Source: Escherichia phage vB_EcoM_SYGD1
Length of the DNA stretch: 64,000 bases
Direction: 5' to 3' (one strand)
Sequence record: MW883059
The notes beneath the pieces are model-generated. The model saw only the letters and a program-made list of their open reading frames with translations. It searched no databases and was not told the origin of the DNA. Below, in pieces: positions 540 to 45,050 of this stretch (its first letter is position 1; each line of letters begins with the position of its first letter). The position numbers and the translations under genes are program-made.

Positions 540-2519
540 TTAACCTGCAAGACCAGTTAACTCATCGAAATCTGCACCAGTAGCAGTTGCGACGAAATTA
601 AGTTGGATATAATTTATACTACGAGCCGGTTGGATGTAGAATGTTGCAACAAACTCATTTCTATCAATTACTGACGGAGTGTTATTTGTTGTATCGCAAA
701 CTACACGATATTCATAAATTCCACCGAGAGCTTTAATTCCCTGTAAGTATTGGGCAGTTTCTGTGCGGAATGATGAACGAGTAAACGCGTTGTTTAATTC
801 GAACAAACGATATTTTGAACTACGTCCGATATTCGTTTTCAACATATTAAACAGACGACGAACGTTAATACGATCAAATGGAGAAGGAACAGAAGTAGCT
901 GTTTTATCACCATACAATACGTAACCATCACCACCTGTACCAGTTACTGGGTTGATAGCTTCTTGATATAAACGGTCGCGCTGAGCTTGGCGAGTTTCAA
1001 TAGCAAGTTTAATAACGTTAAGAATCTGGCCGCGATTATAACCAGCTGGAGACATCCAAGTCTGAGAAACGTTATCGGTTCTTGCACATAAACCGGCAAT
1101 ATCAGCTGCTAATGGAACCCAGCGATTGACATCATTATATTTGTCATACTGATATTTGTAGTTACCATCAATTGCTGCGTAGGTTGAACTGATATTAAAG
1201 TTATTATCAGTGTATGAACCTGTTGCGGTTCTCCAATTGACTAAGTTATCAACAGCGCGAGTTACAGGAATTCCAACTACAGTTTCGCGCGGTGGTGAGC
1301 ACAATACTAAGCAATCCTGGCGAGCATCCCCAATTGAAACGACGTGTTTTTGGACAGTAGATGCTGTTTCTAAAGATTCGCCGGCACAAGAACCCGCAAT
1401 AAACAACTGAACGTCAACAGATTCGCGGTCAGCAAAGAAGTCCCAAGCTTCCATCAAATCTCCTGCTGTTACTTCAGCATTTGATGATAATCCACCAGAC
1501 AGAGTTAAAATTCCAGAGAATCCTTCTGGCCAATTTTGTGCAGTTGCAAAAATATATTCTGAACCGCCTTTTGCGAAAAAGTCATCAATATAGATGTTAC
1601 TGTCATAAATGTCTTTTTCACCATGCTTTGTTGAAAGAACAATACTTTGAACAATAGCATCATTACGGCGAACTATAATAGCGTATTGTGAATCAGTTTG
1701 TGGTCCATATCCAAACACTGCCTTAGCAGTAGATGCGCGTGTTCCGCCACCTGGATAAATTGGGAGTAATGCAGAAGCACCTTTTGCGTAGTCAGCTTTA
1801 GATACGATTTCAATTTCGATTTTATCGCCCAACTCGCCTGGATAAAGAGCTACTACTCCTGGAATTCCATATTTTTCGAGATTTGCTTGAAATTCAACCG
1901 CTGTCATAGCAGCTTCGGCATTTTCAATCTCAGCTAATAAAATACCGGAATCAGTAATGATTTTTCCAAGAGTTATTACTGCAGCTAAACCAGATGAAGA
2001 CGAAGAAATTTCCGCGGTCCAATTAGAACCTAACGCTGGATACTCACCGACTTCTTTCGCTTTAGCGATAATTTTTGCAGTAGGAATATTAATTTTCTTA
2101 ATTTTTCCATCAGCATCTACTTCGGTAATTTTACCTTCCGTTTCAATGTCTTCTGAAACATACTTAACTGTGATTTTATCTCCAACCGCGTAGTTACTAC
2201 CTGGGGTAGAAATAGTGTATTCAATATTACCAGCAATCGGAGATGAGTTTTTAGCGGTATCTCTATCGACAGCACGCACAACTCGCAAATCATTTCCGTA
2301 TTGTAAGAAATTCATTGCAGACATAAAATAGTCAGCAGTTTCAGCTGTAGGTTGACCAAAAGTATTAACTAAATCTACTTCATTTGTAACCTGTTTGATC
2401 TGAAAAGCAGGACCCCACTGGAATTTACCGGCCAAAGCTGCTGTACCAGTAGAGTTATTAACCACGGTGCTTTGAACCGTAGTTTCTTTGAGCTCAATGC
2501 CCGGAGATAATAAAGTCAT
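540..2519 (-). CDS. 18: Tail sheath protein gp18
   Basis: 659 aa, same length as T4 gp18; position upstream of terminase genes in T4 order; late promoter TATAAATA upstream. Confidence 0.9.
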   Translation of the reverse strand: MTLLSPGIELKETTVQSTVVNNSTGTAALAGKFQWGPAFQIKQVTNEVDLVNTFGQPTAETADYFMSAMNFLQYGNDLRVVRAVDRDTAKNSSPIAGNIEYTISTPGSNYAVGDKITVKYVSEDIETEGKITEVDADGKIKKINIPTAKIIAKAKEVGEYPALGSNWTAEISSSSSGLAAVITLGKIITDSGILLAEIENAEAAMTAVEFQANLEKYGIPGVVALYPGELGDKIEIEIVSKADYAKGASALLPIYPGGGTRASTAKAVFGYGPQTDSQYAIIVRRNDAIVQSIVLSTKHGEKDIYDSNIYIDDFFAKGGSEYIFATAQNWPEGFSGILTLSGGLSSNAEVTAGDLMEAWDFFADRESVDVQLFIAGSCAGESLETASTVQKHVVSIGDARQDCLVLCSPPRETVVGIPVTRAVDNLVNWRTATGSYTDNNFNISSTYAAIDGNYKYQYDKYNDVNRWVPLAADIAGLCARTDNVSQTWMSPAGYNRGQILNVIKLAIETRQAQRDRLYQEAINPVTGTGGDGYVLYGDKTATSVPSPFDRINVRRLFNMLKTNIGRSSKYRLFELNNAFTRSSFRTETAQYLQGIKALGGIYEYRVVCDTTNNTPSVIDRNEFVATFYIQPARSINYIQLNFVATATGADFDELTGLAG

Positions 2520-8929: not shown

Positions 8930-10486
8930 TTAGTAATGAATTTTAATAATATAGTTTAATGATATATTCCATGGTCTAGTTTCATATCCGATAAGTCCTT
9001 CACGGTTTAACGTGCCAAACGAGTCACGAGCACCACCCATTTCAAATCCGTCGTTAGTAAAGAACAAATGGTTGTCCCAGTCGGCGCTTTTACCATTGCC
9101 TAAATATCCATTGCCATTAGATGCGCCAAACGGTGCATAACCTCTGTTATTTCCATTTTCCCCCCAGGCACCAGCATGTTTATGGTATGACATTTGTTGT
9201 GCCTGAACACCGCCAACATGCATTCCGTCACATCCTACACCAAGTCTATCCTTCCCGTAGCCATCTTGTCCTCGTTGATTTAAAATATGACTGCCGGTAC
9301 CAGCTCCTCTAACAAAAAGACCTCGCATATCAGGAATACCAGGATTATTCCAATCACCGCCAAATCTTGTTCCAACCACATTTCGATAGTCCGGAAATTG
9401 GTCTCCAGAAATGGTCCCACCATGACATAAAACCCAACCTGGAGGAGCGCTATCACCTGCGAACATTTGAATTGTTCCAACAGGAACACGTTCAGATGCA
9501 TATCTCTCTGTTGCAACTGGCTGGTCACCGTTTTTCCACATTCCGCCGCGCGACCAAATTCCGTTTGCTGTAAGATGGTCTAAATTTAAAGAACCATTAA
9601 TAGTTTGTCCACCACGAGTATTAATTACATCTGCGTTCCATGCTAATGCACCAGAGCTATCACCTTCAGGGGCAATACCGGCTTGCGTCGTTAATTTTAC
9701 CACCCCACGCATAGAACCAGTAGCTCCTCGACCATTTAGTGTTTCACCTGTTACTGCAACATCTCCTAAATTACTGTTAATTTCCGATTGTGTCCCTAAA
9801 CGTATAACACCCTTATATTCTTGTGTTGCAACAGAATTCATAAAGGTATACGGAGAAATTGCATATCCTTCGCGGAGAGTTCCTTGACGAATTTGTGCAA
9901 CAGTAGATAATTGAACTACTCCTCTCACCGATTCTGTTGCAGTGTCTTCTGAAGGAGCTATTTGCGAAATTAATTTTATTGCAAGTTTTTGGGTTTTTAG
10001 CGGAGTCATCGCAGTAGTATCATCAACTCCAGCCAAAGCTGCAGGTGTAGATGATATTTTAATAACCCCGTTTGATGACTCAGACGAATATCTATTTTTG
10101 AACACATCGTCAGTGTGGTATTTCAGTTTTTGTGGTGTTATTGATGAATTATTATCTGAGCCTTTTAATGTTTCTTCATTTGTTGAATAACGCGTTAAAC
10201 CATATTTAGTTTCAGTAGCATTTGGATACAATAATCTTGTTGCTAATGTAGCTGGTGTAACGATTTTAGAATTATTAGTTCCATCTAAAACCTCTTGCTC
10301 TGACGCAATCATTGCTATTCCTTTAACTTCCATAGTTGCGTCAGGAATACCATTTACGCCGATATTACTTATTTTTGATAATGCAGACTGTACTGTCGTA
10401 ACAGTGCCAGGAAAATTCGATCCAGTAGGATCGAATTTAACATATTTTGATTCATTTGATACGTGCTGATATGTATTGTTACTCAT
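8930..10486 (-). CDS. 12: Short tail fiber gp12
   Basis: 518 aa (T4 about 527); synteny between wac and 11. Confidence 0.85.
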
Positions 10487-29650: not shown

Positions 29651-29723
29651 TGGGAATTAGCCAAGTTGGTAAGGCATAGCACTTTGACTGCTAGATGCAA
29701 AGGTTCGAGTCCTTTATTCCCAG
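29651..29723 (+). tRNA. tRNA-Gln (UUG)
   Basis: Manual fold: acceptor tgggaat/attccca, anticodon loop cttTGac, T-arm ggttcgagtcc. Confidence 0.8.
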
Positions 29724-29724
29724 C

Positions 29725-29811
29725 GCGAGAATGGTCAAATTGGTAAAGGCACAGCACTTAAAATGCTGCGGAATGATTTCCTTGTGGGTTCGAGTCCCAC
29801 TTCTCGTACCA
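29725..29811 (+). tRNA. tRNA-Leu (UAA)
   Basis: Manual fold: long variable arm, anticodon loop ctTAAaa, T-arm ggttcgagtcc, encoded CCA. Confidence 0.8.
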
Positions 29812-29817
29812 AAGTTT

Positions 29818-29889
<72 letters not shown>

Positions 29890-29901
29890 AAATTTAATTT
29901 A

Positions 29902-29975
29902 CTCCGTGTAGCTCAGTTTGGTAGAGCGTCTGCTTTGGGAGCAGAATGTCACAGGTTCAAATCCTGCCGCGGAGA
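29902..29975 (+). tRNA. tRNA-Pro (UGG)
   Basis: Manual fold: anticodon loop ttTGGga, T-arm ggttcaaatcc. Confidence 0.8.
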
Positions 29976-29977
29976 CT

Positions 29978-30064
29978 GGAGGCGTGGCAGAGTGGTTTAA
30001 TGCACCGGTCTTGAAAACCGGCAGTCGCTCCGGTGACTCATAGGTTCAAATCCTATCGCCTCCG
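29978..30064 (+). tRNA. tRNA-Ser (UGA)
   Basis: Manual fold: long variable arm, anticodon loop ctTGAaa, acceptor ggaggcg/cgcctcc. Confidence 0.8.
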
Positions 30065-30071
30065 TAATTTC

Positions 30072-30144
30072 GCTGATTTAGCTCAGTAGGTAGAGCACCT
30101 CACTTGTAATGAGGATGTCGGCGGTTCGATTCCGTCAATCAGCA
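30072..30144 (+). tRNA. tRNA-Thr (UGU)
   Basis: Manual fold: anticodon loop ctTGTaa, acceptor gctgatt/aatcagc. Confidence 0.8.
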
Positions 30145-30150
30145 TATCAA

Positions 30151-30222
30151 GGCCCTGTAGCTGGAAGGTTCAAGCAAGCGACTCATAATCGCCAGATGGT
30201 GGTTCAATTCCACCCAGGGCCA
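30151..30222 (+). tRNA. tRNA-Ile (CAU, lysidine type) or Met
   Basis: Manual fold: acceptor ggccctg/cagggcc, anticodon loop ctCATaa; T4 carries a CAU tRNA read as Ile. Confidence 0.7.
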
Positions 30223-30263
30223 TATTTTGGGAACATAAATACTCTTAGAAATAGGAGATATTT

Positions 30264-30929
30264 ATGTTCCATTACACTTATAAAATAACAAATAAAATTA
30301 ATAATAAAATCTATATAGGCGCTCATTCTACCGAAAATTTAGATGATGGATATATGGGTTCTGGTAAATTATTAAAAAGAGCCCAAGACAAGTATGGTAT
30401 AGAAAATTTCTCTAAAGAAATATTAGAGTTCTTTGACGATAAAACCTCTATGTTTGAGTCAGAAAAGAATATTGTGACTGAAGAGTTTTTAAAGCGCCCT
30501 GATGTTTATAATTTGAAATTAGGTGGTGAAGGTGGTTGGGACCATTTAAACACTAAAGAATATTTGGATAAAAAGAAAGAAGCTTCCTTAAAAGGGGCTG
30601 CTGCTTTTAAAACCAGATTTGAGAACGACCCAGACCTTAAAGAAAAATATCGTAAAATGGGTTCAGAAAGGTTTAAACAGCTTTGGGATAATCCTAAGTA
30701 TAGAGAGAAATTTTTAAATATTAAATCTTTATTGGGTAAGACCCATACTCCTGAAACTATTAATAAAATGAAAGAATCTCACGCCAGAAATAAACACCAA
30801 CAGGGCGAAAAGAATTCCCAATTTGGTATGATGTGGATTCATTCATTAGATGAAAAAGTTTCTAAACGTATTAAGAAAACTGACCCAATTCCAGAAGGAT
30901 GGTTTAAAGGTCGAAAAATGAAATTTTAA
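30264..30929 (+). CDS. segB: GIY-YIG homing endonuclease inside the tRNA cluster (SegB-like)
   Basis: 221 aa; N-terminal YTYKITNKINNKIYIGAHS...YMGSG; sits between tRNA-Ile and tRNA-Arg as segB does in T4. Confidence 0.75.
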   Translation: MFHYTYKITNKINNKIYIGAHSTENLDDGYMGSGKLLKRAQDKYGIENFSKEILEFFDDKTSMFESEKNIVTEEFLKRPDVYNLKLGGEGGWDHLNTKEYLDKKKEASLKGAAAFKTRFENDPDLKEKYRKMGSERFKQLWDNPKYREKFLNIKSLLGKTHTPETINKMKESHARNKHQQGEKNSQFGMMWIHSLDEKVSKRIKKTDPIPEGWFKGRKMKF

Positions 30930-30932
30930 TTA

Positions 30933-31009
<77 letters not shown>

Positions 31010-39263: not shown

Positions 39264-39597
39264 AATTTTGGTTTTATGTATAGGATTAATTTCATTTTCT
39301 GCGTTAGCAAATACATCATATACTGAAATTAGAGAGTATGTAAACCGTACTGCCGCGGATTATTGCGGGAAAAATAAAGCATGCCAAGCTGAATTTGCGC
39401 AGAAATTAATATATGCATATAAAGACGGAGAAAGAGATAAATCAAGCAGATACAAGAACGATACTTTATTAAAACGATATGCTAAAAAGTGGAATACCTT
39501 AGAATGTTCAGTTGCGGAGGAGAAAGATAAAGCCGCTTGTCATTCAATGGTTGACCGTTTAGTAGATTCTTATAATCGAGGATTGAGTACTAAATGA
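39256..39597 (+). CDS. Small secreted Cys-containing protein, hypothetical
   Basis: Signal peptide MTKILVLCIGLISFSALA; four Cys; overlaps neighbours at both ends. Confidence 0.4.
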   Translation: MTKILVLCIGLISFSALANTSYTEIREYVNRTAADYCGKNKACQAEFAQKLIYAYKDGERDKSSRYKNDTLLKRYAKKWNTLECSVAEEKDKAACHSMVDRLVDSYNRGLSTK

Positions 39598-40061
39598 TTG
39601 TAAAATATATCAAGGGCGATATTGTCGCCCTTTTCACTGAAGGTAAAAATATTGCGCATGGATGCAATTGTTTTCATACGATGAAAGCTGGAGTCGCAGG
39701 TCAATTAACCAAAGCTTTCCCTAAAATTTTGGAAGCTGATAAATTACAGACTGAATGGGGTGATGTAACTAAACTCGGTTCTTACTCAGTCTATGAAAAA
39801 TACTTTAGGACTCATAAAGCGTATTGCTTCAACCTTTATACTCAATTTCAACCAGGGCCAAATTTTGAATATTCCGCTTTAATGAATTGTATGTTAGAAT
39901 TAAATGAGTTTGGTGAAAATAAACTGATTAAACCTACAATCTATATGCCTAGGATTGGTGCAGGCATAGGTAAAGGGAACTGGGATATTATTGAGGGGAT
40001 TTTAGATACATATTCCTCTAAATTAGAAATTGTGATTGTTGATTGGGAACCATTATTATGA
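39594..40061 (+). CDS. Macro-domain protein (putative ADP-ribose binding / hydrolase)
   Basis: Motif layout GDI...NIAHGCNCFHTMKAGVAGQ ... PRIGAGIGKGNWD resembles macro domain Gly-rich phosphate loops; 155 aa. Confidence 0.5.
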   Translation: MIVKYIKGDIVALFTEGKNIAHGCNCFHTMKAGVAGQLTKAFPKILEADKLQTEWGDVTKLGSYSVYEKYFRTHKAYCFNLYTQFQPGPNFEYSALMNCMLELNEFGENKLIKPTIYMPRIGAGIGKGNWDIIEGILDTYSSKLEIVIVDWEPLL

Positions 40062-40270
40062 ATATACATTATCCACATCCATATGACCCAAAGAATAAGG
40101 CAGTAATTATTCGTCAATGGGAACGCATTTGCCGTACTAAATGTCCAATTAATAGTCCACATGATGTAGATAAAGACTACATTGGAACATTCGTTGAATA
40201 TACCTTTATTGATAAGAAAGGTCGTAAACAGCATGTAGAAGAATACTGCTTAAAGGTTACATGGTTATGA
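40058..40270 (+). CDS. Hypothetical protein
   Basis: ORF 40043-40270; ATG at 40058 assumed. Confidence 0.3.
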   Translation: MNIHYPHPYDPKNKAVIIRQWERICRTKCPINSPHDVDKDYIGTFVEYTFIDKKGRKQHVEEYCLKVTWL

Positions 40271-40473
40271 GCCAAACTAGTATTCTTAAAAATGCCCATT
40301 GTGAAAAGTGTAAATGGCCAGTTGTTTTTGCTTTATGCAACGATGAAATGGCTTGTGATTTCGATTATTGGTGCTATTGTTCTAATAAAGGATGCATCAA
40401 TCATAAAGGTGAAGGATTTTATTCGGGATTTTATCCTTATCCAGATTTCGTTAAAGAAGGTAAACCGAAATGA
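40261..40473 (+). CDS. Hypothetical Cys-rich small protein
   Basis: 70 aa with nine Cys (CEKCKW..., C..C..C). Confidence 0.35.
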   Translation: MVMSQTSILKNAHCEKCKWPVVFALCNDEMACDFDYWCYCSNKGCINHKGEGFYSGFYPYPDFVKEGKPK

Positions 40474-40643
40474 ATAGTTCTGAGTTACAATATGAAGTGT
40501 CACGTGAACTTGATAATTTAATTGAACTCGCTGCTAATAAAGGTTTTGCCATTGGAATTGGCCAAAAAGATACTGATCATTTAACTATGGAAATATTTAA
40601 GCAAAAGCGAATTATTTTAAAACTTCTGGAAATTAATATATGA
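40470..40643 (+). CDS. Small helical protein (possible member of the paralog family)
   Basis: 57 aa, ATGA-coupled to neighbours; not in ORF track (under 60 aa). Confidence 0.3.
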   Translation: MNSSELQYEVSRELDNLIELAANKGFAIGIGQKDTDHLTMEIFKQKRIILKLLEINI

Positions 40644-40825
40644 GCCTAAGCAAAGAACAAAAAGACAGACTCTTTTCTCTTATCCACGAAGTTATGGATA
40701 AAAATAGTGAATTGGAAAAAGTTTGTAATGAATGCGGTCCTTTTAGCGCAAACGAGTACGAAGAACTTTCTAAAGAATTCGATAATAAAGAACAAGAACT
40801 CATTGATTATATAAATTCCTTATGA
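40640..40825 (+). CDS. Small helical protein, paralog family member
   Basis: 61 aa; shares M-x-x-x-EQ...L..L pattern with five other ORFs. Confidence 0.4.
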   Translation: MSLSKEQKDRLFSLIHEVMDKNSELEKVCNECGPFSANEYEELSKEFDNKEQELIDYINSL

Positions 40826-41010
40826 TTACTCGCGAACAAAAGAACGAAATATTATTTTTAGTTGGTGAAATTATTAGTTTAGAAAAGGATTTGTCTTTTG
40901 AAATATCTTCTGAATATGGAGATGCCGAAACATATTACGAATTAGTAAAATCTATCGATAAAGCTGAAAATGATTTAAAAACATATTTAGAAAATTTAAC
41001 TAAGGATTAA
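40822..41010 (+). CDS. Small helical protein, paralog family member
   Basis: 62 aa; family pattern. Confidence 0.4.
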   Translation: MITREQKNEILFLVGEIISLEKDLSFEISSEYGDAETYYELVKSIDKAENDLKTYLENLTKD

Positions 41011-41011
41011 A

Positions 41012-41593
41012 ATGGCGAGTTTAATTTTTACTTATGCAGCAATGAATGCTGGAAAATCTGCTTCTCTTTTGACTGCTGCACATAATTATAAAGAACGTGG
41101 AATGAGTGTATTAGTTCTTAAGCCTGCTATTGATACTCGCGATTCTGTCTGCGAAGTCGTTTCTCGCATTGGAATTAAGCAGGAAGCAAATATTATTACA
41201 GATGATATGGATATTTTCGAGTTCTATAAATGGGCTGAAGCACAAAAAGATATTCATTGCGTATTTGTAGATGAAGCCCAGTTTTTAAAAACTGAACAGG
41301 TGCATCAATTGAGCCGAATTGTTGATACATATAATGTTCCTGTTATGGCTTATGGATTAAGGACTGATTTCGCTGGAAAATTGTTTGAAGGTTCTAAAGA
41401 ACTTTTGGCGATTGCAGATAAACTTATTGAACTAAAGGCAGTTTGTCATTGTAGTAAAAAAGCTATTATGACAGCTCGATTAATGGAAGATGGAACACCC
41501 GTTAAAGAAGGTAATCAAATCTGTATTGGTGATGAAATTTATGTTTCTTTGTGTAGAAAACATTGGAATGAATTAACTAAAAAGCTTGGTTAG
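41012..41593 (+). CDS. tk: Thymidine kinase
   Basis: 193 aa; P-loop AAMNAGKSASLL; C-terminal Cys cluster. Confidence 0.9.
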   Translation: MASLIFTYAAMNAGKSASLLTAAHNYKERGMSVLVLKPAIDTRDSVCEVVSRIGIKQEANIITDDMDIFEFYKWAEAQKDIHCVFVDEAQFLKTEQVHQLSRIVDTYNVPVMAYGLRTDFAGKLFEGSKELLAIADKLIELKAVCHCSKKAIMTARLMEDGTPVKEGNQICIGDEIYVSLCRKHWNELTKKLG

Positions 41594-41635
41594 TGCAAAA
41601 GTTATAAATAGGTTTATCTAACTAAAGGGGTATAT

Positions 41636-41848
41636 ATGCTACAATTAACTGAAAAGCAACTTCGCAATCTTACCGTTCTTCAATTAGATGAAATTCGTAG
41701 GGAAGTTGGAAATATCATTTCAGCTTTGCGTCGAGAAGTATCACTCAACCAATCTCCGGCAGACTATACTAGATTGCGAAATTTTGAAAAATACCTTGAT
41801 AAAGTTAAGGCCGTGCATCGGCATAAAGTAAATACAGGGCAAAAATGA
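41636..41848 (+). CDS. Hypothetical protein (rI.1 position)
   Basis: 70 aa; position between tk and rI. Confidence 0.35.
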
Positions 41849-41860
41849 TAGGAGGCCTTT

Positions 41861-42154
41861 ATGGCCTTAAAAGCAACGGCACTATTTGCCATGCTAGGAT
41901 TGTCATTTGTTTTATCTCCATCGATTGAAGCGAATGTCGATCCTCATTTTGATAAATTTATGGAATCTGGTATTAGGCACGTTTATATGCTTTTTGAAAA
42001 TAAAAGCGTAGAATCGTCTGAACAATTCTATAGTTTTATGAGAACGACCTATAAAAATGACCCGTGCTCTTCTGATTTTGAATGTATAGAACGAGGCGCG
42101 GAGATGGCACAATCATACGCTAGAATTATGAACATTAAATTGGAGACTGAATGA
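41861..42154 (+). CDS. rI: Lysis inhibition regulator RI (antiholin)
   Basis: 97 aa as T4 RI; N-terminal signal-anchor hydrophobic segment; adjacent to tk. Confidence 0.6.
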   Translation: MALKATALFAMLGLSFVLSPSIEANVDPHFDKFMESGIRHVYMLFENKSVESSEQFYSFMRTTYKNDPCSSDFECIERGAEMAQSYARIMNIKLETE

Positions 42155-42537
42155 AATTCAGCGACTTTTCACAAAGTGGAAAACCTTCAAAGGCAGATGA
42201 ATACTTAGGTTTATTAATGGCTGCACAAGCTTATTTTCATTCTGCACATTTTGAAACTAAAAGTTATGCTAGACACAAAGCATACGATTTTATTTTCTCC
42301 GAGTTGCCAGATTTGATTGATAAATTTGGTGAGCAATATTTGGGGTATTCTGGTAGAAAATACACACCTTCAATTCCAGATGCTAGTAAACTTCCTACCG
42401 ACACAATTAAAATGATTGATCGCATACTAGACCAATCTAACAGCATTTATAAAGAAATGCCTCCAGCCATTCAAAGCACGATAGATGATATTACTGGGAT
42501 GTTTTACCAGAGTAAATATCTTCTTTCCCTCGAATAA
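42151..42537 (+). CDS. Hypothetical protein (rI.-1 position)
   Basis: 128 aa; followed by terminator 42542-42565. Confidence 0.4.
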
Positions 42538-42574
42538 CATTAGTCTCCTTCGGGAGACTTTTTTCATTTTACTG

Positions 42575-42604
42575 GTTTACTTTCCATTTGAGCTGTGATA
42601 CTAT
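42575..42604 (+). promoter_or_regulatory. T4-type early promoter
   Basis: gtttac ... tgtgatactat. Confidence 0.55.
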
Positions 42605-42633
42605 ACAACCATCGGATAAAGAGGAGAACATCA

Positions 42634-42809
42634 TGAAAATTGAAGCACTTAATCGATATGTCATCATTAATGGTGATTTTTTCGTCGACATGGATGAAGT
42701 CACTAGTGAAGAACTTGTAGAACTTCTTAAGGAACATTATGATATGTGTGATGAAGTTGCAACTCACATGGCGTGTGCAATATTCTCTCTTTCATATGTG
42801 GTGGAATAA
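42634..42809 (+). CDS. Hypothetical small protein
   Basis: ORF 42588-42809; ATG 42634 with SD aagaggag upstream. Confidence 0.4.
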
Positions 42810-43012
42810 TGATTAGTATCGAACAAGCGGATAAAATTAAGGAATTAGTAGCTTTAATTCGTAAAGCAGACGAGGAACTTAGTGACTTTGCTTGGTTTTC
42901 GTCAGGCATTGCAAATAAAGGTATTGAAGAATTTGAAGCTAAAGTTGATAATGCTGTAGAAGCTTTAGATATGTTTCTTGATGAAATTATCGATCATAAT
43001 ACGAGAGTTTAA
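42809..43012 (+). CDS. Small helical protein, paralog family member
   Basis: [16 protein letters not shown]...; TAATG overlap with previous ORF. Confidence 0.4.
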   Translation: MISIEQADKIKELVALIRKADEELSDFAWFSSGIANKGIEEFEAKVDNAVEALDMFLDEIIDHNTRV

Positions 43013-43014
43013 GT

Positions 43015-43209
43015 ATGCTGACACACGAACAGTTTGAAAAAATCATTAAATTAGTACGTGATGTTGAAATAGATTCATATCAATTAGCAGTTGAGCATTG
43101 TGAAGGATATTCATACGACGGTATAGAAGCAGCTAAAAGAGATTTGGATAAATCCAAAGCTAAGTTAGTTCAATATCTTGAAATGATTAGGTGGAATAAT
43201 GAAAACTGA
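43015..43209 (+). CDS. Small helical protein, paralog family member
   Basis: MLTHEQFEKIIKLV... Confidence 0.4.
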   Translation: MLTHEQFEKIIKLVRDVEIDSYQLAVEHCEGYSYDGIEAAKRDLDKSKAKLVQYLEMIRWNNEN

Positions 43210-43372
43210 AAAGCAGATGTTTTTAATGAAGCTAATTGAAGAATACGCTAATGCAGTTTCTGACTATGAGTATTCTTCTCGTGAAAGAGGTACAGCTTTC
43301 GCAAAGGAAGAAATGAAAATTATGGTTGATGCTCACACAAAGCTTCAGAATTTTATTGAAAACGTCATTTAA
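43199..43372 (+). CDS. Small helical protein, paralog family member
   Basis: MKTEKQMFLMKLIEEY...; 57 aa, not in ORF track. Confidence 0.35.
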   Translation: MKTEKQMFLMKLIEEYANAVSDYEYSSRERGTAFAKEEMKIMVDAHTKLQNFIENVI

Positions 43373-43374
43373 CA

Positions 43375-43404
43375 GTTTACAAGTTGGCAAGGTTATGGTA
43401 TAGT
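43375..43404 (+). promoter_or_regulatory. T4-type early promoter
   Basis: gtttac ... tggtatagt. Confidence 0.5.
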
Positions 43405-43536
43405 AATCTTGTCAACTGTCAAGGAGAAGAGAATGAAAATTTTGTTTGTTGTGTATGTGATGATTCAATATAATTACCCAATGTTTACTTATAATCTGGT
43501 GAACAACATTATTGATATTATTCAAAGGAGCATGTA

Positions 43537-43722
43537 ATGACAAGTGAGCAGGCTTTTAAATTAAGAGAATTAATTGAGATGTATAGTAAAGCTGTTCATA
43601 CATCAACAGTTATTGATGAATCAGCTTTCTCCGGATATGCTAACAAGATTAAATACAAAACTCTTATGGAAGAAGCTAAAGTAAATCTTGATTCTTATAT
43701 TGAAACTTTAATTGGTGAATAA
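43537..43722 (+). CDS. Small helical protein, paralog family member
   Basis: MTSEQAFKLRELIEMY... Confidence 0.4.
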   Translation: MTSEQAFKLRELIEMYSKAVHTSTVIDESAFSGYANKIKYKTLMEEAKVNLDSYIETLIGE

Positions 43723-43723
43723 C

Positions 43724-43990
43724 ATGGGCTTTCCTAAATTAGAAGTAGGCGATTTAGTCTTAACAAAATTGTGGAATGATGCTCAATCAGTAGAAATCTG
43801 TCAATATCGTGGAGCAACAGGTAATTTGATGTACACGATTTATAACCCAGAAATTTTGTTAGAGTGTCATTTGGAACGCTTTATAAAAGACACTGATAGT
43901 ATGCCTTATAGTGTATCGATTGTGCGTAAATCTGACACAAAGGAATACTCTAAAATTTTAGAAAAAATTCATGCCAATAAAAAGGATTAA
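43724..43990 (+). CDS. Hypothetical protein
   Basis: ORF 43712-43990; start at MGFPKLEV assumed. Confidence 0.35.
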   Translation: MGFPKLEVGDLVLTKLWNDAQSVEICQYRGATGNLMYTIYNPEILLECHLERFIKDTDSMPYSVSIVRKSDTKEYSKILEKIHANKKD

Positions 43991-43991
43991 T

Positions 43992-44522
43992 ATGAAACGA
44001 TTAGTATTAGAAGTTAGTTCACTTTTTGGTGAATTGGCTATAGAAAAAGTAAATAATATGTATCGTTTGACGCAAGAAGACGATATGCTATATTTTACGC
44101 CTAGCGAAATTATTCATTTAACCCAAATTGAAAAACCTTACACTGATAAAATTGTAAGCATTAATGATGAGCATAAAATTCATTTTTATTCTTTATGCCC
44201 AGGATTTAATATTGAAAGCGAGTCAATATGCTTATCAATTAATAATTGGGATAATTTTATAACTAAAATTAAATATTTTTATTATTCTAACGAAAGAAAA
44301 CATGGTTTAAAATGGTTTAAAAATTGCAATGCTATTATTACTAACGCTTGTAATCAAAATTATGAAACTGTTTTAAATGTATCAAAGTGTTACGAAGAAG
44401 GAGATGTCTTAACTATTCGTCAATCGGTAAATGATGTTAATGTTGTTGTATTAAACAAAGAAGAAGCTGTTTTATTAAAGACTTATCTTGATTCTGTCAT
44501 TCCAACTATGATTTCAAAGTGA
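43992..44522 (+). CDS. Hypothetical protein (paralog of 44529-45050)
   Basis: ORF 43971-44522; C-terminal EEAVLLKTYLDSVIPTMISK resembles SEAEAMIKYLTTVTPSMKG of next ORF. Confidence 0.4.
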   Translation: MKRLVLEVSSLFGELAIEKVNNMYRLTQEDDMLYFTPSEIIHLTQIEKPYTDKIVSINDEHKIHFYSLCPGFNIESESICLSINNWDNFITKIKYFYYSNERKHGLKWFKNCNAIITNACNQNYETVLNVSKCYEEGDVLTIRQSVNDVNVVVLNKEEAVLLKTYLDSVIPTMISK

Positions 44523-44528
44523 GGAAAT

Positions 44529-45050
44529 ATGTTTATTTCGAGTGAAAGTGGTTTAATTCGTGTTGAATTTAAAAATGACATCTTCCTTATTCAAGGAGAT
44601 GATATTATTAAAATGAGTTATGACGAAATCAAGAAAATTTGCCATGCTCTTGAAAGTCATGGAAAAGTGAACGCTGTTATTGATATTGGCGATTTATGGG
44701 TGACACTTTATGAAGTATCCGAAGGATTTAACATTGAAGATGAAAATAACATCTTAGCTATTGATAAAAGAAGTGATTTGTTTGATGTATTAAAAGTTTA
44801 TGAACATTCAAACGGTGGAAGAAAAGCTGTATTGATTTATCAAAAACCGCATTCATGCGGAACTGCTTCAATCATTTCAAATATTGAAGATGAAACTGAT
44901 ACTTATATGTGTGTTTTAAAAGCTGGTGGTGACCGTCATCCGGATTTTATTTCTATTCGTCAAAACAATGGAGAAATTTCATTATCAAAATCAGAAGCTG
45001 AAGCTATGATTAAGTATTTAACAACTGTTACACCTTCAATGAAAGGATAA
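44529..45050 (+). CDS. Hypothetical protein (paralog of 43992-44522)
   Basis: 173 aa; shared C-terminal motif. Confidence 0.4.
   Translation: MFISSESGLIRVEFKNDIFLIQGDDIIKMSYDEIKKICHALESHGKVNAVIDIGDLWVTLYEVSEGFNIEDENNILAIDKRSDLFDVLKVYEHSNGGRKAVLIYQKPHSCGTASIISNIEDETDTYMCVLKAGGDRHPDFISIRQNNGEISLSKSEAEAMIKYLTTVTPSMKG

What the first reader, a model, noticed from the sequence alone, without database searches (positions are those of the whole stretch)
40470..43722. Family of at least six small helical paralogs flanking tk and rI
ORFs at 40640, 40822, 42809, 43015, 43199 and 43537 (about 57-67 aa each) share a pattern: M, two or three residues, EQ, then L..L, and a C-terminal YLE/YIE..L motif. The ORF at 40470 is ATGA-coupled to them but fits the pattern less well. 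Tandem diversified duplicates of a small helical protein are typical of anti-defence or host-takeover factors under diversifying selection.
Basis: seen in the sequence. Interest (0 to 1): 0.5.

Follow-up and report, generated by a model that had tools for sequence, protein, structure and literature searches.

The report
Known T4 small-protein family DUF7438
The six small ORFs are real but very divergent copies of one small two-helix protein family of T4-like phages, already listed in Pfam as DUF7438 (T4 genes tk.2, tk.1, mobD.4, mobD.3, mobD.2a plus one extra); they are made early, are dispensable in the laboratory, and have no known function.

Summary
All six ORFs (40640, 40822, 42809, 43015, 43199, 43537) score above the gathering threshold of Pfam PF24219 (DUF7438). 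In leave-one-out HMM tests, each left-out member ranks first among 488 window ORFs plus 1000 shuffles. The 40470 ORF is not a member (hhalign probability 0.3%).

The window is a T6/RB14-like Tequatrovirus. The genes are tk.2, tk.1, mobD.4, mobD.3, mobD.2a and an RB14/T6-type extra ORF.

AlphaFold2 predicts acidic alpha-helical hairpins of about 60 aa. Fold searches give only generic hairpin matches.

The family is narrow: 29 clusters among 1.84 billion representatives, all in T4-like phages. Copy number ranges from 0 to 6 around tk. One copy usually sits directly upstream of tk, and the paralog types predate the genera.

Single gene cassettes are gained, lost and swapped, but orthologs evolve under purifying selection (dN/dS 0.07-0.63, never above 1).

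T4 proteomics detects four members early or in mid-infection. Transposon data call all the T4 copies non-essential.

The best guess is that they are conditionally useful early binding proteins with paralog-specific targets. An anti-defence role is possible but untested.

Novelty: already known as a family of unknown function.

The parts
40640..40825 (+). tk.2 ortholog, DUF7438 member (61 aa, pI 4.4, net charge -8). Its ATG overlaps the stop of the 40470 ORF (ATGA).
   Evidence: Pfam PF24219 67.4 bits; phrog_653; RB14/T6/T4 annotation as tk.2; leave-one-out HMM 20.7 bits, top hit.
40822..41010 (+). tk.1 ortholog, DUF7438 member (62 aa, pI 4.3, net charge -8). ATGA-coupled to tk.2; its stop lies 1 nt before the tk start.
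   Evidence: Pfam 55.6 bits; phrog_653; leave-one-out HMM 32.4 bits; closest paralog of tk.2 (phmmer E 9e-5).
42809..43012 (+). mobD.4 ortholog, long-loop allele (67 aa, pI 4.3, net charge -9). Its start overlaps the mobD.5 stop (TAATG).
   Evidence: Pfam 60.5 bits; phrog_653; leave-one-out HMM 20.7 bits. T4 carries a 60-aa short-loop allele.
43015..43209 (+). mobD.3 ortholog, DUF7438 member (64 aa, pI 5.0).
   Evidence: Pfam 63.3 bits; phrog_653; AlphaFold2 pLDDT 82, helices 4-16, 21-28 and 34-63.
43199..43372 (+). mobD.2a ortholog, DUF7438 member (57 aa, pI 5.3). Overlaps the end of mobD.3 by 11 nt.
   Evidence: Pfam 60.3 bits; phrog_2758; leave-one-out HMM 15.1 bits, top hit. Split by a frameshift in the T4 reference.
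43537..43722 (+). RB14ncORF101c / T6 'RB14ncORF103c'-type ORF, DUF7438 member (61 aa, pI 5.1). Absent from T4. Its start overlaps the mobD.2 stop (TAATG).
   Evidence: Pfam 54.5 bits; phrog_4859; AlphaFold2 pLDDT 88, hairpin with helices 3-25 and 31-60. Present in 8 of 14 Tequatrovirus loci; megablast matches break at its borders.
40470..40643 (+). RB32ORF110c-type ORF. A translationally coupled neighbour, NOT a family member.
   Evidence: No DUF7438 hit; phrog_3452; not among family HMM hits at E<10; hhalign probability 0.3%.
42542..42567 (+). Terminator-like hairpin plus T-run after rI.-1. It separates the tk/rI transcription unit from the mobD.5-mobD.2a unit.
   Evidence: Terminator scan: 7-bp stem, 4 GC pairs, TTTTTCATTT tail.
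42575..42603 (+). Probable early promoter of the mobD.5-mobD.4-mobD.3-mobD.2a unit (GTTTAC ... GATACT). The position is inferred.
   Evidence: Read from the sequence. A mobD.5 promoter is seen by primer extension in T4 (PMC1702504). Not listed by the consensus scan.
43376..43404 (+). Promoter-like site (TTTACA-17-TATAGT with upstream TG) ahead of mobD.2 and the 43537 ORF.
   Evidence: Promoter scan, 10 of 12 matches. Consensus match only; promoter-like sites are no more frequent in this region than in shuffles.

Best explanation
The six ORFs are divergent paralogs of one phage-specific family, Pfam DUF7438. They correspond to T4 genes tk.2, tk.1, mobD.4, mobD.3 and mobD.2a, plus a sixth ORF found in T6 and RB14 but not in T4.

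Each encodes an acidic, soluble protein of about 60 aa that folds as an antiparallel alpha-helical hairpin. They are transcribed with early genes and packed with overlapping start and stop codons. In T4, four members are detected as proteins early or in mid-infection.

They are accessory genes: dispensable on laboratory E. coli, and gained, lost and swapped as single-gene cassettes among T4-like phages.

The mechanism below is inferred, not shown. The conserved ends of the two helices (N-terminal TxEQ...L..L[IV] and C-terminal L..[YF][LI]E.[LI]) come together at the open end of the hairpin. They probably form a common scaffold, likely a dimerisation or docking surface. The central turn region varies in sequence and length and probably gives each paralog its own partner. 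On this view the proteins act stoichiometrically, by binding host (or possibly phage) macromolecules early in infection, and they matter only in particular hosts or conditions.

Confidence that this is the DUF7438 family is about 0.97. Confidence in the binder mechanism is about 0.4.
For: Family identity:
- Pfam hits above cut-off.
- Leave-one-out HMM tests.
- Orthology to annotated tk.2, tk.1, mobD.4, mobD.3 and mobD.2a in RB14, T4 and T6.

Fold: two AlphaFold2 models, pLDDT 82 and 88, both helical hairpins.

Acidity: pI 4.3-5.3, net charge -2 to -9.

Expression: T4 MobD.3 and MobD.4 are classed early RNA/early protein; Tk.1 and Tk.2 early RNA/middle protein (PMC9697503 supplement). The T4 mobD.5 promoter is documented. 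Overlapping starts and stops are read from the sequence.

Dispensability:
- The T4 nrdC.11-mobD.3 deletion is viable (PMC9825161).
- All T4 members are 'Non-essential' by transposon mapping (bioRxiv 10.1101/2025.11.20.689424 supplement).

Accessory behaviour:
- 0-6 copies within 4-8 kb either side of tk in about 55 T4-like loci.
- tk.2+tk.1 are replaced by a single alternative allele in 7 of 14 Tequatrovirus loci.
- That allele is 85.5% nt identical to a Gaprivervirus allele, while the adjacent tk is 68.7% identical.
- Megablast matches break at gene borders.

Protein-level constraint:
- dN/dS 0.07-0.20 for four paralogs.
- The helices (0.09 and 0.14) are more constrained than the middle segment (0.21).
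- Within-ortholog variable sites look more frequent in the central segment for mobD.4 and tk.1, by inspection only.
- In-register natural tk.2/tk.1 chimeras exist.

Context: the neighbour tk.4 is a reported anti-DarTG2 factor.
Against: - No experiment or homology gives a partner or activity. Foldseek against PDB and BFVD found nothing significant (best E 3.6 and 0.43).
- Oligomeric state could not be modelled.
- The conserved TxEQ could be merely a helix N-capping box, which would be structural rather than a docking site.
- Single-gene transposon insertions show no fitness cost, and the text of the T4 screen names other genes as its hits. Redundancy could explain this, but so could a marginal function.
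- The dN/dS estimates pool non-independent pairs and rest on few substitutions for tk.1 and the 43537 ORF.
Confidence: 0.4

Rival explanations
1. The family is an anti-defence array. Each paralog inhibits a different bacterial immune protein or sensor, and redundancy or host specificity hides the phenotype on E. coli K-12.
For: - Small, acidic, early, dispensable, variable in copy number and exchanged between genera.
- The locus lies 0.4 kb downstream of tk.4/AdfM, a reported anti-DarTG2 factor.
- From my own knowledge, Acb2/Vs.4 lies a few kb upstream in T4. It appears in PDB as 'Vs.4 from T4 phage in complex with cGAMP'.
Against: - No similarity to any characterised anti-defence protein (Acb2 Foldseek E about 8).
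- Orthologs are under purifying rather than positive selection.
- In its text, the T4 transposon screen against RexAB, RnlAB, CBASS, DarTG1 and DarTG2 reported other genes as hits.
- One copy is positionally conserved directly upstream of tk across several genera. That looks more like a stable function than an arms-race gene.
Confidence: 0.2
2. The proteins serve a phage-internal function tied to their conserved neighbours. They could be small adaptor or regulatory subunits for thymidine kinase or the nucleotide-precursor complex, or for the rI/rI.1/rI.-1 lysis-inhibition module.
For: - In most genera that carry the family, a member lies within about 170-230 nt upstream of the tk start, and is the adjacent ORF in the annotated genomes checked. 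This holds where only one copy exists (Klebsiella phage Roth66) and in Mosigvirus and Gelderlandvirus.
- In the window, tk.1 ends 1 nt before the tk start.
- The other copies sit just downstream of rI.-1.
Against: - Many T4-like phages with tk and rI have no family member nearby: RB49, leE, PS2 and more than 10 IMG/VR loci.
- Members are individually dispensable.
- Synteny in T4-like early regions is generally conserved whatever the function.
- No co-variation with tk was seen.
Confidence: 0.12
3. The ORFs have little or no protein function. They would be filler ORFs kept for translational coupling and operon spacing, or drifting remnants of old duplications.
For: - No phenotype of single insertions.
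- Frequent loss.
- Frameshifted mobD.2a in the T4 reference sequence.
- Tight ATGA/TAATG coupling to neighbours.
Against: - Amino-acid sequences are conserved with dN/dS far below 1 for four paralogs.
- Paralog types are retained across genera whose Tk is only 70-81% identical.
- Four members are detected as proteins in T4.
- The fold is predicted confidently.
Confidence: 0.06
4. The similarity is a chance resemblance among AT-rich small helical ORFs.
For: Pairwise identities are only 16-33%, and several pairwise phmmer E-values exceed 1.
Against: - The curated Pfam model hits all six at E<=1.5e-14.
- Leave-one-out tests rank each member first of 1488 sequences.
- No other window ORF scores, including the equally small helical 40470 ORF.
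Confidence: 0.01

Closest known systems
Pfam PF24219 (DUF7438); PHROGs phrog_653, phrog_2758 and phrog_4859; T4 genes tk.1, tk.2, mobD.4, mobD.3, mobD.2a
   Same: The window ORFs are members. They give full-length matches above the curated cut-off, and they are orthologs (about 85-100% aa identity) of annotated genes in T6, RB14 and T4 at the same map positions.
   Different: There is no difference in kind. This phage carries six copies, as T6 and RB14 do. The T4 reference has four intact copies plus a frameshifted mobD.2a and lacks the 43537-type ORF. PHROGs splits the family into three groups; Pfam unites them.
Small early 'monkey-wrench' proteins of lytic phages, such as T4 AsiA and T7 Gp2 (named from my own knowledge, not tested here)
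   Same: Small size, early expression and dispensability in some hosts. They are presumed to act by stoichiometric binding rather than catalysis.
   Different: No sequence or specific fold similarity was found, and no target is known. This is an analogy of class, not membership.
Generic antiparallel helical hairpins that pair into four-helix bundles (ROP; WXG100/ESAT-6-CFP-10; type III secretion EscE/EscO)
T4/T6 PseT.1 (Pfam PF26888)
   Same: Same N-terminal M-x-T-x-E-Q...L-I and C-terminal L..Y-I-x-S-L motifs, similar length (72-76 aa), early-region small ORF. Family HMM E 0.0016; hhalign E 4.7e-4 over the full length.
   Different: hhalign probability is only 33%. It is a separate Pfam family with no DUF7438 hit. 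It has a longer, strongly conserved middle segment and lies elsewhere in the genome (T6 134.4 kb), outside this window.

Membership tests
Pfam PF24219 DUF7438 | Whole-protein score at or above the curated gathering cut-off (25 bits) | tested here: met
   The six ORFs score 67.4, 55.6, 60.5, 63.3, 60.3 and 54.5 bits. The 40470 ORF, rI.1, mobD.5 and the 40261 ORF give no hit.
Pfam PF24219 DUF7438 | A single domain of about 57 positions that spans essentially the whole 55-67 aa protein | tested here: met
   Matches cover profile positions 1-57 (1-56 for mobD.2a) and protein residues 1-3 to 55-61.
Pfam PF24219 DUF7438 | Relatedness shown independently of the curated model (a profile built without the tested sequence) | tested here: met
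   In leave-one-out HMM tests, each left-out member is the top hit of 488 ORFs plus 1000 shuffles.
Pfam PF24219 DUF7438 | Common fold among members | tested here: met
   AlphaFold2 models of mobD.3 (pLDDT 82) and the 43537 ORF (pLDDT 88) are both helical hairpins with a long C-terminal helix. These are predictions, not solved structures.
'Helicase loader' (annotation of phrog_4859 and of some RefSeq records for the 43537-type ORF) | Similarity to a helicase-loading protein such as T4 gp59 (about 220 aa in T6) | tested here: not met
   The protein is 61 aa. The only Pfam hit at E<0.1 is DUF7438, and NCBIfam gives none at E<0.07. The real gp59 is a separate 663-nt gene elsewhere in T6. The name appears to be an annotation artefact.
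'Molybdopterin-guanine dinucleotide biosynthesis protein MobD' (RefSeq name for mobD.4-type proteins) | Similarity to molybdenum-cofactor biosynthesis proteins | tested here: not met
   No Pfam or NCBIfam match other than DUF7438. In T4, 'mobD' names a homing endonuclease gene and mobD.4 is merely its numbered neighbour. This is name confusion.
WXG100 / ESAT-6-like | Helical hairpin of about 100 aa with a W-x-G motif in the turn, significant structural or sequence similarity, and a type VII secretion context | tested here: not met
   Foldseek E is 3.6-9.8 with probability at most 0.25. None of the six has W-x-G (sequences). The context is a phage early operon.
Known anti-defence proteins (e.g. 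Acb2/Vs.4) or defence-system components | Sequence or structural similarity to a characterised member | tested here: not met
   Acb2 and Vs.4 structures match only at Foldseek E 8.0-8.5. PADLOC gave no hit at E<=1.
Anti-defence or host-takeover factor (functional class) | Loss of the gene sensitises the phage to a defence system or host, or the protein binds or inhibits a host factor | not testable with these tools
   Indirect data only. Single insertions in the T4 copies are non-essential. The screen's text names other genes as its hits with RexAB, RnlAB, CBASS, DarTG1 and DarTG2.
Genes under diversifying (positive) selection | dN/dS above 1 gene-wide or in a defined segment among orthologs | tested here: not met
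   Nei-Gojobori estimates on 14 Tequatrovirus loci give 0.07-0.63 per gene and 0.21 for the variable middle segment. Site-specific models were not run.

The most novel reading that the evidence does not exclude
The family could be a redundant set of hairpin 'decoys' or inhibitors. They would share one docking surface at the conserved open end of the hairpin, and each would present a different central turn to a different host target (immune sensors or housekeeping hubs). Only removal of all copies, possibly including the distant PseT.1, would then reveal a host-range or anti-defence phenotype. Exchange of single cassettes between phage genera would be the way T4-like phages retune that repertoire.
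Probability: 0.15. Interest if true: 0.6.

Novelty: already known. Interest (0 to 1): 0.27.

Why it matters
T4 is the best-studied lytic phage, yet roughly half of its genes, mostly small early ORFs like these, still have no function. This work shows that five named T4 ORFs and a sixth T6/RB14 ORF form one fold family with a conserved scaffold and a variable centre. The family has ancient paralog types, and single cassettes are exchanged between phage genera. That gives a rational design for experiments: delete the whole family rather than single genes, and swap the central segments. If the proteins prove to be host-targeting binders, they would add a compact new inhibitor scaffold. If not, the family is simply one more catalogued DUF. 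The analysis also flags two misleading names now spreading through databases, 'MobD molybdopterin...' and 'helicase loader'.

Tried and rejected
- A profile search of PDB sequences gave only weak TPR or coiled-coil noise, E>=0.03.
- NCBIfam and PADLOC gave no hits.
- Literature searches found no functional study. I searched for 'DUF7438', the gene names and UniProt accessions. The 2003 T4 genome review is not held.
- The 40470 ORF as a seventh member was rejected.
- The exhaustive HMMER search gave no bacterial or distant homologs. One hit was a 936-aa protein matched in 14 short stretches of the N-terminal motif (P0116), which I discounted without inspecting it.
- The idea of obligatory tandem heterodimer pairs, as in ESAT-6/CFP-10, was rejected. 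Copy numbers of 1, 2, 3, 4, 5 and 6 occur, and adjacency is not consistent.
- Gene-wide positive selection is not supported.
- A regular expression of the motif hits only the six ORFs. It was fitted to them, so it shows specificity, not significance.


Full report
**What the window is.** Megablast of 40200-44000 finds 575 phage records. The best is phage T6 at 97.3% identity over 100% of the query, and all of the close matches listed are T-even phages of the genus Tequatrovirus. The + strand of the window is the direction of early transcription.

Using the RB14, T4 and T6 annotations, the region reads as follows:
- tk.4 (39594)
- tk.3 (40043)
- an RB32ORF111c-type zinc-binding ORF (40261; Pfam PF23895)
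- an RB32ORF110c-type ORF (40470)
- tk.2 (40640) and tk.1 (40822)
- tk (41012), rI.1 (41636), rI (41861), rI.-1 (42151)
- a terminator-like hairpin (42542)
- mobD.5 (42633), mobD.4 (42809), mobD.3 (43015), mobD.2a (43199), mobD.2 (43409)
- an RB14ncORF101c-type ORF (43537), then further small ORFs

**Checking the observation.** The six ORFs exist with the stated sizes. Pairwise they are only 16-33% identical, and several pairwise phmmer E-values exceed 1. The question of chance is therefore fair. Three independent results answer it.
- The curated Pfam model PF24219 (DUF7438) matches all six over their whole length at 54.5-67.4 bits, against a cut-off of 25.
- An HMM built from any five members ranks the sixth first among all 488 window ORFs of at least 30 aa plus 1000 shuffles of that sequence. 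The left-out members score 15.1-32.4 bits and each beats every one of its own shuffles.
- No other ORF of the 64 kb window scores with the six-member HMM or with a broader 25-sequence HMM.

It has no Pfam hit to the family and belongs to its own PHROG family. The family HMM gives it no score. Profile-profile comparison gives a probability of 0.3%.

The motif is approximately as described. The 'EQ' is EK in the 43199 ORF. Only three of the six have a literal YLE or YIE near the C-terminus.

**Anatomy.** AlphaFold2 was run with a 49-sequence family alignment.
- mobD.3: helices 4-16, 21-28 and 34-63, pLDDT 82.
- The 43537 ORF: a plain hairpin with helices 3-25 and 31-60, pLDDT 88.

All six proteins are acidic, with pI 4.3-5.3 and net charge -2 to -9.

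Family-wide conservation is confined to two stretches:
- the N-terminal part of helix 1: [IL]-[TS]-x-E-Q-x3-[IL]-x2-L-[IV]
- the C-terminal part of the last helix: D-x-A-x3-L-x2-[YF]-[LI]-E-x-[IL]

By the geometry of an antiparallel hairpin, these two stretches meet at its open end. The central segment around the turn varies in sequence and length between paralogs. By eye, more of the within-ortholog variable positions fall there for mobD.4 and tk.1; this was not quantified.

**Expression.** The genes are packed with overlapping start and stop codons. ATGA occurs at 40470, 40640 and 40822, TAATG at 42809 and 43537, and there is an 11-nt overlap at 43199.

A terminator-like hairpin follows rI.-1. 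A T4-early-type promoter sequence precedes mobD.5, and the T4 mobD.5 promoter has been seen by primer extension (PMC1702504). A second promoter-like site (TTTACA-17-TATAGT) precedes mobD.2 and the 43537 ORF.

In T4 time-resolved omics, MobD.3 and MobD.4 are classed early RNA/early protein. Tk.1 and Tk.2 are classed early RNA/middle protein. So four members are detected as proteins (PMC9697503 supplement).

**Distribution.** The word-indexed search of 5.8 billion proteins returned 109 clusters. Nearly all are close variants of one of the six window paralogs, from T4-like phages or contaminated enterobacterial assemblies. The exhaustive HMMER search of 1.84 billion representatives found only 29 clusters at E<=0.001. 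Apart from fragments and one 936-aa repetitive hit, the full-length ones are 57-67 aa. The family is narrow.

I scanned the regions 4-8 kb either side of tk in about 55 T4-like loci and found these copy numbers:
- 6 in the window, RB14 and T6
- 4 intact plus a frameshifted mobD.2a in the T4 reference
- 2-3 in Mosigvirus
- 2 in the Gaprivervirus and 2-3 in the Gelderlandvirus loci; 1-3 in unassigned IMG/VR loci whose Tk is about 70% identical
- 1 in some Klebsiella and Yersinia phages
- 0 in Krischvirus RB49, Pseudotevenvirus leE, Muldoonvirus PS2 and many others

In most genera that have the family, one member lies within about 170-230 nt upstream of the tk start.

Paralog types are shared across genera at syntenic positions:
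- the tk.2 type upstream of tk in Mosigvirus and Gaprivervirus
- the tk.1 type upstream of tk in Gelderlandvirus
- the mobD.3 type about 1.95 kb downstream of tk in several genera
- the mobD.2a type in Mosigvirus

The duplications therefore predate the genera.

The rest of the T6 genome has no further clear member. The only candidate is PseT.1 (Pfam PF26888), with family HMM E 0.0016 and hhalign probability 33%, E 4.7e-4.

**Plasticity and selection.** In 7 of 14 Tequatrovirus loci, the tk.2+tk.1 pair is replaced by a single alternative tk.2-like allele. That allele is 85.5% nt identical to the allele of Gaprivervirus TH55, while the adjacent tk genes are only 68.7% identical. This implies cassette exchange between genera.

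The 43537 ORF is present in 8 of the 14 loci. Megablast matches of hundreds of genomes break at window positions 40639, 41012, 43538 and 43726, which are gene borders. Natural in-register tk.2(N)/tk.1(C) chimeras exist: P0004 from phage UFV-AREG1, and P0085.

Within orthologous groups, however, selection is purifying. Nei-Gojobori dN/dS values are:

| Gene or segment | dN/dS |
|---|---|
| mobD.3 | 0.07 |
| mobD.2a | 0.08 |
| tk.2 | 0.09 |
| mobD.4 | 0.20 |
| 43537 ORF (few substitutions) | 0.41 |
| tk.1 (few substitutions) | 0.63 |
| tk (control) | 0.02 |
| rI.-1 (control) | 0.02 |
| rI (control) | 0.09 |
| family, helix 1 | 0.09 |
| family, middle segment | 0.21 |
| family, helix 2 | 0.14 |

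Nothing exceeds 1. These are pooled pairwise estimates and carry the usual non-independence.

**Function.** No paper in the searchable library treats these genes functionally. The T4 nrdC.11-mobD.3 block can be deleted (PMC9825161). The HIDEN-SEQ preprint lists tk.1, tk.2, mobD.2a, mobD.3 and mobD.4 as non-essential. The text of its screens with RexAB, RnlAB, CBASS, DarTG1, DarTG2 and minimal medium reports other genes as hits. One of them is the neighbour tk.4, named AdfM, an anti-DarTG2 macrodomain.

Structure searches give no specific relative. NCBIfam and PADLOC give nothing.

**Most likely mechanism.** What is shown:
- one family and a predicted hairpin fold
- early expression and dispensability
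- cassette-like turnover
- protein-level constraint

What is inferred: the proteins act by binding rather than catalysis. The conserved open end of the hairpin would serve as a common scaffold or docking (possibly dimerisation) surface. The variable turn region would be the paralog-specific surface. The benefit would depend on the host or condition. I put about 0.4 on this.

Rivals are weighed in the report sections:
- a specifically anti-defence role, about 0.2
- a role tied to Tk or lysis inhibition, about 0.12
- near-neutral filler ORFs, about 0.06
- chance similarity, which is refuted

**Comparison with known families, and novelty.** These ORFs are members of Pfam DUF7438 and of three PHROG families. 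They are orthologs of long-annotated T4, T6 and RB14 genes, so the finding rediscovers a catalogued family of unknown function.

Two names attached to members in databases fail the tests made here. They are 'molybdopterin-guanine dinucleotide biosynthesis protein MobD' and 'helicase loader'.

The resemblance to ROP, WXG100 or EscO hairpins is generic.

**Verdict.** Interest is modest. The useful output is a defined family with a clear whole-family knock-out experiment.

Noticed in passing
window 39594-40061 (+): This is tk.4, a macrodomain protein 0.4 kb upstream of the 40470 ORF and about 0.6 kb upstream of the first family member. A 2025 preprint (10.1101/2025.11.20.689424) reports that the T4 ortholog is AdfM, needed to overcome the DarTG2 defence system.
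   Followed up: partly
window 42809-43012 and 43537-43722; RefSeq records: Database names look wrong. mobD.4- and mobD.5-type proteins are called 'molybdopterin-guanine dinucleotide biosynthesis protein MobD'. The 43537-type ORF (phrog_4859) is called 'helicase loader'. Neither name has Pfam or NCBIfam support. The first appears to come from confusion with the gene name mobD, which in T4 denotes a homing endonuclease.
   Followed up: yes
L006 (T4 NC_000866) 9994-10166, minus strand; compare window 43199-43372: In the T4 reference sequence, mobD.2a is split by a frameshift into 38-aa and 33-aa pieces. It is intact (174 nt) in the window, in most of the other Tequatrovirus loci examined (at least 11 of 13), and in the T4 stock annotated in the HIDEN-SEQ preprint. 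This is either a strain difference or an old sequencing error.
   Followed up: partly
proteins P0004 (Escherichia phage UFV-AREG1) and P0085; compare window 40640-41010: These are natural chimeras with the N-terminal half of tk.2 fused in register to the C-terminal half of tk.1. They are presumably deletions by recombination between the adjacent paralogs.
   Followed up: partly
L059 (T6 MH550421.1) 876-1106, minus strand; outside the window: PseT.1 (76 aa, Pfam PF26888) shares the family's N- and C-terminal motifs. The family HMM gives E 0.0016 and hhalign gives probability 33%, E 4.7e-4. It is a possible distant relative, but this is unproven.
   Followed up: partly
window 43971-44522 and 44529-45050 (+): This is a second, unrelated tandem paralog pair just downstream: mobD.1-like proteins of 183 and 173 aa, 24% identical, BLASTP E 2e-11.
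   Followed up: partly
L011 2876-3061, L013 3806-3991, L053 680-865; compare L003 7806-7991: Half of the Tequatrovirus loci have one alternative tk.2-like allele in place of tk.2+tk.1. It is 85.5% nt identical to the Gaprivervirus TH55 allele, although the adjacent tk genes are only 68.7% identical. This implies exchange of a single-gene cassette between genera.
   Followed up: yes
window 40261-40473 (+), overlapping tk.3 (40043-40270) by 10 nt: A 70-aa cysteine-rich ORF matches Pfam PF23895 'Phage zinc binding domain' (E 2.6e-29). It is absent from the T4 reference and present in the other Tequatrovirus loci examined. It is highly constrained (dN/dS 0.02).
   Followed up: partly
window 29651-31009 (+): This is the T-even tRNA gene cluster, with eight tRNAs. 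ARAGORN labels the CAU-anticodon tRNA as Met. From my own knowledge, it is the T4 tRNA-Ile. An ordinary feature.
   Followed up: no
window 42542-42559, both strands: The GC-rich hairpin after rI.-1 scores as terminator-like on both strands. Only the + strand copy is followed by a clean T-run.
   Followed up: no
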